Source: Octopus vulgaris (Eukaryota). From it: DNA of 64,000 nt. Shown piece after piece: positions 55,454 through 56,194 of this stretch (position 1 is its first letter; each line of letters starts with the position of its first letter). The stretch spans positions 151,342,001-151,406,000 of the forward strand of contig OX597817.1 of assembly GCA_951406725.2 (NCBI GenBank). The letters run 5' to 3'. Both the position numbers and the translations under genes were made by a program. The notes beneath the pieces are model-generated. The model saw only the letters and a list, made by a program, of their open reading frames with translations, made no database searches and was not told the origin of the DNA.

Positions 55454-55838
55454 TACAGGGTAAATGTTTTTCAATTTTCTCCTGGTTTACGGAATTGACG
55501 TTATTTTGCGGTTAAAGCTTTTGGCTGTTATTTCTAGTGGGTGAATGACCTATTATGGCCGTTCCTTGATTGTTAATGTTGAACTTAAAAATGGTTTATG
55601 ACTATTTAATTTTTTCCCACTAGGCCGCTGGTGGCAAAAGAATTCTACAAAATTTTTTTTGCCACCCTATATTGATTAATTATGAATTTTCTGGTTAATT
55701 CCGTAATGGAATCGGCGGCTTATATTTATTTGCTGCCGATAAATTTGGCGCGAGTGCGACGATTTGAAAATTTTAGGTCAGATATTGACGAGGTAGCAAT
55801 GAGAATGCCTCGTGAAAAATATCTGTTCCGGTTTGGCT

Positions 55839-55945
55839 ATTTCTTACTGATGAATCTAAGGGCCTATGGTAGATTGGCTTGATTTAATTTAATCAGGTTA
55901 GTTTTCCATTAAACAGAAGATGAAACGGTGCATCGTCTAAGAAAT
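55839..55945 (+). ncRNA. Type I hammerhead ribozyme with 68-nt extended stem II
   Basis: Stem I atttctta/taagaaat (8 bp), core CTGATGA (55847-55853), stem II atct/agat plus inner hairpin, GAAAC (55922-55926), stem III ACGG-tgca-TCGT, GTC triplet; predicted cleavage after C55937. Confidence 0.88.
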
Positions 55946-56194
55946 TACAGGGTAAATGTTTTTCAATTTTCTCCTGGTTTACGGAATTGACGTTATTTTG
56001 CGGTTAAAGCTTTTGGCTGTTATTTCTAGTGGGTGAATGGCCTATTATGGCCGTTCCTTGATTGTTAATGTTGAACTTAAAAATGGTTTATGACTATTTA
56101 ATTTTTTCCCACTAGGCCGCTGGTGGCAAAAGAATTCTACAAAATTTTTTTTGCCACCCTATATTGATTAATTATATATATATATATATATATA

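What the first reader, a model, noticed from the sequence alone, without database searches (positions are those of the whole stretch)
55668..56159. The 492-nt monomer is almost wholly structured, with G-U wobbles that fix strand polarity
By-eye pairings on the HHR strand: 55694-55706 with 55979-55991 (13 bp, long range, enclosing the HHR); 55711-55719/55732-55740; 55779-55825 hairpin; 56000-56008/56012-56020; 56035-56042/56049-56056; 56026-56033/56108-56115; 56122-56158 hairpin. Imperfect positions are mostly G-U on this strand and would be A-C mismatches on the other, which is expected of selected RNA structure rather than DNA palindromes. The fold appears branched rather than rod-like.
Basis: partly seen in the sequence, partly recalled or inferred. 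Interest (0 to 1): 0.75.

Follow-up and report, generated by a model that had tools for sequence, protein, structure and literature searches.

The report
Ribozyme retroelement inserting as inverted concatemers
A 492-base repeat carrying a hammerhead ribozyme motif occurs in thousands of copies in this animal genome, mostly as back-to-back inverted arrays inside TA microsatellites, and its relatives show selection for one strand's RNA fold; a Penelope-type reverse transcriptase likely copies one folded, probably circular, RNA from two fixed start sites.

Summary
The monomer is the unit of a non-LTR retrozyme family (2,720 hammerhead-pattern matches). 'Almost wholly structured' overstates it: 55-59% of bases pair, and base composition explains most of the strand asymmetry and G-U excess. 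Relatives rescue the polarity claim: inherited stem changes give G-U 21 times and A-C 7 times, against 26 and 34 for changes private to one copy (p=0.006). The hammerhead has a 44-nt hairpin inside stem II and a covarying pseudoknot; Rfam misses it. The larger result is the insertion form: two inverted concatemer arms in (TA)n, one ending at site A and the other at site B, 106 nt apart (67 of 78 and 21 of 25 two-arm insertions). Arms share haplotypes and cross the cleavage site unscarred. A Hydra-clade Penelope element in the genome follows the same end rule. Best reading: a Penelope-type enzyme primes both target ends on one, probably circular, RNA. Expression, cleavage and circularity are untested. 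The scan noted similar Penelope-type tandem insertions, without a ribozyme, on other DNA.

The parts
52515..52536 (.). Left (TA)n target flank
52536..55177 (-). Left arm: 5.37 tandem units, 99.9% identical to the monomer, five hammerhead copies; 3' end at site A against (TA)n; 5' end truncated at monomer position 220
55175..55177 (.). Head-to-head junction of the two 5'-truncated arms, 2-3 nt overlap
55175..56175 (+). Right arm: 2.03 units, two hammerhead copies; 3' end at site B against (TA)n
55446..55937 (+).
   Evidence: triplet ends at 55445 and 55937; cleavage inferred
55694..55991 (+). Long-range helix H1 (55694-706 with 55979-991) closing the domain that holds the hammerhead
   Evidence: p 0.97; 93.5% of cells paired; register shifts in clade II
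55711..55740 (+). Hairpin H2
   Evidence: 0.97; 96.8%
55779..55825 (+). Hairpin H3 with hypervariable loop; outer stem conserved, inner stem only partly (76%)
55835..55838 (+). Pseudoknot 5' strand, directly before hammerhead helix I; predicted to pair with 55861-55864
55839..55945 (+). Type I hammerhead motif: helix I 55839-46/55938-45, core 55847-53, helix II 55854-57/55918-21, GAAA 55922-25, helix III 55925-36 with palindromic tetraloop, predicted cleavage after 55937
   Evidence: (11 core positions invariant in 95-97 loci; N7 and N17 vary)
55861..55864 (+). Pseudoknot 3' strand in the internal loop of the extended stem II
55866..55909 (+). 44-nt hairpin inserted in hammerhead stem II (18 pairs, 5 G-U)
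   Evidence: 97.7%; 0.97
55948..55976 (+). Hairpin H5, one two-sided change between clades
56000..56120 (+). Second domain: H6 56000-04/56116-20, H7 56026-33/56108-15, H8 56035-56, H9 56081-99
56058..56069 (+). End site A (monomer about 391-402), in an unpaired loop 3' of H8; one arm of each insertion ends here
   Evidence: unpaired probability 0.64
56122..56158 (+). Hairpin H10, one two-sided change between clades
56164..56175 (+). End site B (monomer 5-16 of the next unit), unpaired, 3' of H10; the other arm ends here
   Evidence: unpaired probability 0.76
56173..56194 (.). Right (TA)n target flank

Best explanation
This is the repeat unit of a non-LTR retrozyme, a non-coding retroelement with a type I hammerhead motif, whose + strand fold is under selection and whose copies are likely inserted by a Penelope-like (probably Hydra-clade) RT/endonuclease that would cut a (TA)n tract on both strands and prime both ends on one, probably circular, RNA. 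Shown: tandem arms in inverted head-to-head pairs within (TA)n; one arm ends at site A and the other at site B; both arms and nearly all units share one haplotype; arms exceed unit length and cross the cleavage site without scars; core and stems are conserved with strand-polar changes. Inferred: a multimeric transcript is cut by the hammerhead, which a pseudoknot helps to dock, into 492-nt monomers that are ligated to circles; the fold leaves sites A and B unpaired for the enzyme; each target end is extended around the circle for 0.1-10 turns; the two 5'-truncated cDNAs are joined by microhomology. Confidence: retrozyme with RNA-level selection about 0.92; Penelope-type mobilisation about 0.88; circular template about 0.65; the specific partner family about 0.4.
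For: Copy number and spread: 1,000 exact core matches and 2,720 for the wider pattern, control 0; contigs of organisms B, C and D cover parts of the unit at 80% likeness or more. End rule: clade I 78 two-arm insertions = 67 A/B, 2 A/A, 0 B/B, 9 other or cut off (67 of 69, p=8e-18); clade II 25 = 21 A/B, 1 B/B, 3 other. In a sample not chosen by similarity (all 36 motif loci of C1 plus one of C2) 24 of 37 are two-armed (counted by eye). One template: own arms differ by 0.2% (38 of 65 identical, maximum 1.5%) against 4.4% between insertions (108 of 4,963 identical); 13 variants in 9 insertions are fixed in all copies of both arms and seen in no other of the 78. Read-through: 64 of 67 A/B insertions have an arm longer than one unit; 1 of 134 5' ends lies within 265-277 (3.5 expected); 379 crossings of the cleavage site carry 3 indels, the median for a 10-nt bin. 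Selection; inherited changes at 18 of 226 paired against 47 of 266 unpaired positions (p=0.002); hammerhead region 6 two-sided pairs, 0 of 500 shuffles. Penelope link: a Hydra-type element (CxCX5C linker, DKT motif) has a hammerhead with a long stem II and two ends; 8 of 9 of its inverted loci pair short with long, and its short end carries the same 10-mer as site B. Published: PLE RT starts at two internal RNA sites, cuts and extends both strands at AT-rich DNA (PMC11167929); inverted copies, one-sided tails and (TA)n targets are PLE marks (PMC8557442).
Against: No expression, cleavage or circle was observed. The hammerhead is not in the predicted MFE: forcing it costs 5.1 kcal/mol and its helices have probability 0.07 or less, in a program that cannot form the pseudoknot. 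In vitro the anole PLE used uncleaved RNA, and cleavage was dispensable (PMC11167929). Within-insertion variation is not all single-copy: 153 singletons, 17 shared within one arm and 12 shared across arms (5 of these in one indel-rich spot of L091), with period-2 patterns in L057 and L063; so multimeric templates, later block duplication or gene conversion occur. Only 78 of an estimated 1,000 or so insertions were compared, so 'unique' variants may have unsampled source arrays. Over the whole monomer, pairs with two-sided change (6 of 112) do not exceed shuffles (127 of 500). The retrozyme has no significant sequence similarity to the candidate PLE repeat beyond 9-11-nt matches (E 0.2-3), and that family was found by searching with the motif. 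13 of 37 unbiased loci are single-armed.
Confidence: 0.62

Rival explanations
1. Same element and enzyme, but the template is an uncleaved linear multimeric transcript, twin-primed at A in one unit and B in another; the hammerhead serves another step.
For: Uncleaved RNA was the dominant substrate for a PLE in vitro (PMC11167929). 12 variants are shared by some units of both arms and period-2 patterns occur. Autonomous PLEs give the same two-ended inverted form from long, presumably linear RNAs.
Against: Arrays would shorten every generation, yet young insertions hold up to 11.5 units in total. New variants fixed in every unit of both arms need a one-unit bottleneck (13 in 9 insertions; many small subfamilies). 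The core is invariant although insertion ends avoid the cleavage site.
Confidence: 0.27
2. Cleaved linear monomers are copied with repeated end-to-end template jumps, or short insertions were later amplified as DNA satellites and made uniform by gene conversion.
For: Block-duplication-like patterns in L036, L050, L057, L063; the satellite route is proposed in 10.64898/2026.07.22.740005.
Against: No indel excess at the cleavage site (3 in 379 crossings). Both inverted arms are multimeric in 34 of 67 insertions, with arbitrary 5' ends and fixed 3' ends, in copies 98-99.9% identical to the window monomer.
Confidence: 0.07
3. The helices are DNA palindromes or a by-product of G+U-rich composition, or the G-U bias comes from A-to-I editing rather than selection.
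For: Both strands beat shuffles; about three quarters of the strand gap is compositional; static G-T excess not significant. 13 of the 21 changes to G-U are A to G.
Against: Inherited 21:7 against private 26:34; C to U against G to A leans the same way (8:4); in clade I inherited A to G is 5 of 50 paired and 5 of 78 unpaired A; two-sided changes in stems II, H5, H10, the loop III palindrome and the pseudoknot.
Confidence: 0.04

Closest known systems
Animal non-LTR retrozymes (Cervera and de la Pena 2020, PMC7229834; Li, Clavereau and Pollet 2026, 10.64898/2026.07.22.740005)
   Same: Non-coding tandem units, one type I hammerhead each, GC under 50% (36%), stable self-paired fold, palindromic loop III, coexistence with PLEs.
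   Different: Unit 470-492 nt (170-400 nt in the 2020 paper, 51-972 in the 2026 preprint); hammerhead with a 44-nt hairpin in stem II and a pseudoknot instead of loop 1-loop 2 contacts; inverted two-arm insertions in (TA)n with two fixed ends, which the text I read of these papers does not describe ('inverted', 'microsatellite' 0 hits in PMC7229834). Circular RNA was shown there, not here.
Penelope-like elements, Hydra clade and Poseidon PAc (PMC8557442, PMC11167929)
   Same: (TA)n targets, 5'-truncated inverted partner copy, a tail on one end only, two internal start sites, hammerhead near the 3' end.
   Different: No ORF; tail 106 nt (about 96 in clade II) instead of 30-40; both arms are concatemers of the whole unit; no significant similarity to the one pLTR compared.
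Pseudoknotted hammerheads (Perreault et al. 2011, PMC3088659)
   Same: A 4-5 bp pseudoknot between stems I and II regions, reported for about 40% of hammerheads in all three types.
   Different: Here it joins the strand 5' of helix I to an internal loop of a stem II that continues into a long hairpin; helix I and the stem II linker both shorten by 2 nt in clade II.
L1 twin priming (PMC2837659, search listing only; details recalled)
   Same: Inverted 5'-truncated piece joined by microhomology, both target ends primed on one RNA.
   Different: Second site is fixed, arms overlap the same sequence many times, no poly(A), no clear target duplication.

Membership tests
Non-LTR retrozyme | [quoted passage not shown] | tested here: met
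   7 cores in 7.4 units in the window
Non-LTR retrozyme | No protein coding, GC under 50% | tested here: met
   no stop-free frame of 150 aa in 52536-56175; 177 of 492 G+C; no tRNA
Non-LTR retrozyme | Dispersed, mobile copies | tested here: met
   loci on more than 20 contigs, 97-100% identical; several subfamilies
Non-LTR retrozyme | Stable self-paired fold on the ribozyme strand | tested here: met
Non-LTR retrozyme | Self-cleavage and accumulation as circular RNA | not testable with these tools
   needs in vitro cleavage and northern or raw reads; only contigs of runs guessed to be RNA were available
Type I hammerhead ribozyme | CUGANGA, GAAA, NUH core with three helices | tested here: met
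   11 core positions invariant in 95-97 clade I loci, N7 U/A/C, triplet GUC or GUA; helices covary. Rfam gives no hammerhead hit at gathering score or at E up to 10, probably because of the insert (inference)
Type I hammerhead ribozyme | [quoted passage not shown] | tested here: inconclusive
   4-5 bp pairing kept through several two-sided changes (2 of 4 pairs; 85% of cells, 4 rows pair in a register shifted by one); whether it coexists with helices I and II is inferred
Penelope-like element, non-autonomous derivative | PLE-type insertion marks: inverted truncated copy, one-sided tail, microsatellite target | tested here: met
Penelope-like element, non-autonomous derivative | Sequence descent from a pLTR | tested here: inconclusive
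   one candidate pLTR compared: only 9-11-nt matches, one at the shared end; other PLE families of the genome not compared
Autonomous PLE | RT plus GIY-YIG ORF | tested here: not met
Pol III SINE or satellite | A and B boxes, no internal T runs | tested here: not met
   no B box on either strand, nine T4+ runs on the + strand (consensus patterns recalled)

The most novel reading that the evidence does not exclude
These insertions are a genomic record of rolling-circle target-primed reverse transcription on one circular ribozyme RNA: a dimeric Hydra-clade PLE enzyme places one target end on site A and the other on site B, which the selected fold leaves exposed. That would be direct evidence for the so far hypothetical integration step of animal retrozymes, and would explain PLE tails and inverted copies as one two-site, two-end reaction.
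Probability: 0.5. Interest if true: 0.78.

Novelty: new variant of a known kind. Interest (0 to 1): 0.62.

Why it matters
How animal retrozyme circles return to the genome, and why Penelope elements leave tails and inverted copies, are both stated as open in the papers read (PMC7229834, PMC8557442, PMC11167929). This family gives about a thousand natural products with a strict two-site rule, a minimal 492-nt template, mapped start sites and a candidate enzyme in the same genome, so the reaction can be rebuilt in vitro. It also shows a hammerhead form that Rfam does not detect, so such families are likely undercounted.

Tried and rejected
Expression: no RNA holder listed on record. Three runs guessed to be RNA hold contigs over the unit, but their depth against a neighbouring repeat is not above the ratio in the large run X15, and contigs cannot show ends or circles; not used as evidence. 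Rfam: nothing at gathering score in the window, only chance hits at E up to 10. A first pattern for a loop variant found 0 matches because that subfamily also differs at the triplet. Pfam did not recognise 7 of 8 PLE-like frames; clade assignment rests on motifs and pairwise matches, and one search found no match. Static G-U counts and the energy gap between strands were rejected as tests. RNAalifold on the MAFFT alignment lost H1, H2 and hammerhead helices I and II, because clade II is misaligned there; helices were therefore taken from single-sequence folds. One search failed to remove overlapping loci and was replaced, where 15 + 2 duplicate loci were dropped. The anchor pattern failed and was redone. 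Fold-back origin of the second arm: only 4 of 67 junctions are symmetric, rejected as the rule. The Neptune-like family in the window showed one 3' end in 19 of the 20 loci where its ribozyme motif was found or sought, so it is a poor partner candidate. No look-alike in the scan's notes by sequence or in this genome.

Full report
Setting. The window is C4:151342001-151406000 of G000, a 2.8-Gb genome in 227 contigs, rich in (TA)n. No call names the organism; from size and composition I guessed a cephalopod, which is untested. The finding lies in the right arm of an inverted pair of 492-bp arrays: 52536-55177 on the - strand (5.37 units) and 55175-56175 on the + strand (2.03 units), with (TA)n on both outer sides. 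Monomer position 1 below is window 55668.

Observation. All listed pairings exist. Six are near-certain in the circular ensemble (0.89-0.99); the hairpin 56000-08/56012-20 has 0.10 against 0.86 for 56000-04/56116-20. Both strands beat shuffles (z -5.55 and -4.46 linear; -5.6 and -3.8 circular). The fold is branched, but only 55% of bases pair in the MFE and 59% on ensemble average. The strand gap (46.9 kcal/mol) is mostly compositional (35.7 +/- 5.7 in shuffles; 8 of 150 reach it), and G-T against A-C in strand-neutral inverted repeats (21:4) is not beyond shuffles (913:368; p=0.11).

Family. The genome holds 1,000 exact copies of the core 3' motif and 2,720 of a wider hammerhead pattern, control 0. 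Clade I spans 89-100% identity to the window; clade II is about 73% identical, with 468-482-nt units. Contigs of three other coded organisms cover parts of the unit (two of the four runs are one sample).

Selection on structure. Helices were defined from one member per clade. A pair state counted as inherited if it was the majority state in 3 or more insertions, and as private if seen in one of 3 or more units. After dropping 17 duplicate loci, 101 + 41 insertions and 109 + 116 pairs gave: Watson-Crick to G-U 21, to A-C 7 (inherited), against 26 and 34 (private), p=0.006; kept against broken 35:15 and 38:81, p=7e-6. In all 21 cases the reference member has the Watson-Crick pair, so the choice of pairs does not favour G-U. 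States are polarised by majority, not by a tree, and are not independent events. Inherited changes hit 18 of 226 paired and 47 of 266 unpaired positions. Two clade II members fold on their own into matching domains (z -4.4 and -6.2 on the ribozyme strand, -3.6 and -4.8 on the other). On 22 monomers 94.1% of cells pair and slid controls give 31-47%, but pairs with two-sided change (6 of 112) do not beat shuffles. So the polarity is supported mainly by one-sided, wobble-tolerant changes.

Ribozyme. The type I hammerhead has an invariant core in 95-97 clade I loci, with variation only at N7 and N17, and a palindromic loop III that changes as UGCA to UAUA. Stem II carries a 44-nt hairpin beyond an internal loop. 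Four bases just 5' of helix I complement four bases of that loop: GGCU/GGCC in 93 clade I loci, AGCU/GGCU in L147, GGUU/AACC in 16 clade II loci, AGUU/AACU in L191, GGCU/AGCC in L181, and 5-bp forms in a register shifted by one in a further subfamily (75 distinct hammerheads from 122 loci; 14 single-locus variants pair incompletely in the fixed register, several at truncation junctions). On 15 clade II rows the whole model has 6 two-sided pairs, 0 of 500 shuffles, two of them in this helix. Because it crosses helices I and II it would be a pseudoknot, a device reported for about 40% of hammerheads (PMC3088659, passages). It could instead be an off-state helix: the nested model prefers it (0.58) to the hammerhead, which costs 5.1 kcal/mol. 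Rfam finds no hammerhead here.

Insertion form. Of 78 two-arm clade I insertions, 67 have one arm ending at site A (about 398-402) and the other at site B (about 11-16), 2 are A/A, none B/B, 9 are other or cut off; 24 further pieces are single arms (17 B, 7 A). Clade II gives 21 of 25 A/B, 1 B/B, 3 other. Most loci were chosen by similarity, which favours long arms; in the set of all 36 motif loci of C1 plus one of C2, 24 of 37 are two-armed (by eye). The B end followed by (TA)n occurs 1,062 times (control 28); 26 of the first 30 are this family (25 by BLAST, one by eye). Both sites are unpaired UUGAUU-type patches just 3' of a strong hairpin. Junctions mostly overlap by 0-8 nt (48 of 67). The two arms of an insertion differ by 0.2% (maximum 1.5%) against 4.4% between insertions; 13 variants in 9 insertions are fixed in both arms and unique among the 78. 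64 of 67 have an arm longer than one unit, 5' ends avoid the cleavage site, and 379 crossings show no scar. Against a pure monomer circle: 29 of 182 within-insertion variants are shared by several units, 12 across arms, with period-2 patterns in two loci.

Partner. The window itself holds pieces of two young PLE families. Following the B motif led to a third family (1,735 candidates) with a Hydra-type RT/endonuclease frame, broken into separate frames in the copy seen (CxCX5C linker and DKT motif as in PMC8557442 section 11; E 8e-32 and 2e-27 to the 722-aa frame of the second family). It has a hammerhead with a long stem II, a short end with the same 10-mer as site B and a long end about 70 nt further; 8 of 9 inverted loci pair short with long. 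The second family does so in L294 and L295. The motif match is short, was the search key, and is the only shared sequence, so the partner is a candidate only.

Mechanism. Shown: anatomy, end rule, shared haplotype, read-through, selection. Inferred: transcription (promoter unknown; no Pol III B box), cleavage, ligation, two-ended priming on one circle, microhomology joining. PMC11167929 (parts 1-2 of 4 read) shows a PLE cutting and extending both strands of AT-rich DNA from two internal RNA sites that match the genomic tail, but also that uncleaved RNA sufficed; this keeps the linear-multimer rival at about 0.27.

What is known. PMC7229834 (passages and parts 2-4 of 6 read; supplement with the integration model not seen) defines non-LTR retrozymes, shows circles in coral, mussel and axolotl, and proposes circle-templated tandem cDNA and PLE partners as hypotheses. 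The 2026 preprint (parts 1-3 of 5 read; supplements closed) links vertebrate retrozymes to pLTRs. PMC8557442 and its preprint (passages, section 11) describe inverted copies, 30-40-bp tails and (TA)n targets. PMC13282606 (passages) lists recently active PLE families in an octopus and has no 'satellite' hit. Searches listed no paper whose title, abstract start or read text describes two-armed retrozyme concatemers with an A/B rule; subscription journals and repeat databases were not searched. Earlier scan notes report similar Penelope-type tandem insertions with tRNA-like units in other genomes, unchecked by me.

Verdict. A real, selected RNA fold in a retrozyme; the structure claim alone is expected for this class. 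The added value is the unusual hammerhead and the strict two-ended insertion pattern, which makes the integration step testable. New variant of a known kind; interest 0.62.

Noticed in passing
window 25572-27673 (+): 5'-truncated, young PLE copy (Neptune-like by recalled motifs) with RT end, GIY-YIG-like domain, a minimal hammerhead-like motif near 27525 and (TA)n on both sides; 114 of 114 scored matches 99-100% identical, 24,299 candidates.
   Followed up: partly
window 32131-32939 (+); L284-L295: Fragment of a second young PLE family (Hydra-type motifs, frames up to 722 aa, 11,127 candidates) with a hammerhead and two 3' ends about 75 nt apart.
   Followed up: partly
window about 3770-3945 (+); L215: Another hammerhead-bearing end piece with short and long ends about 72 nt apart, both abutting (TA)n, in inverted pairs in L215.
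   Followed up: no
window about 16780 (+): A further hammerhead-like core with a short stem II.
   Followed up: no
window about 56225-56447 and 58016-58237: Two inverted, similar copies of a roughly 220-bp high-copy repeat facing each other across microsatellites; possibly terminal inverted repeats of a DNA element.
   Followed up: partly
L145:1993-2290; L059:4057-4200: One arm switches from the retrozyme at about position 379 into what looks like another element's 3' end; another junction holds about 56 nt of foreign filler: signs of template switching.
   Followed up: no
L234 (C1:7116000-7122400): Three G-to-T variants fixed in 5-9 copies across both arms and seen in no other of 78 insertions.
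   Followed up: no
L322:6266-8782 and 3284-5608: Long PLE-type frames in inverted orientation; the 839-aa frame has weak RVT_1 and GIY-YIG matches.
   Followed up: no
window 6976-9506 (-) and 33920-37898 (-): Decayed frames resembling an LTR-retrotransposon pol and a LINE (recalled motifs).
   Followed up: no
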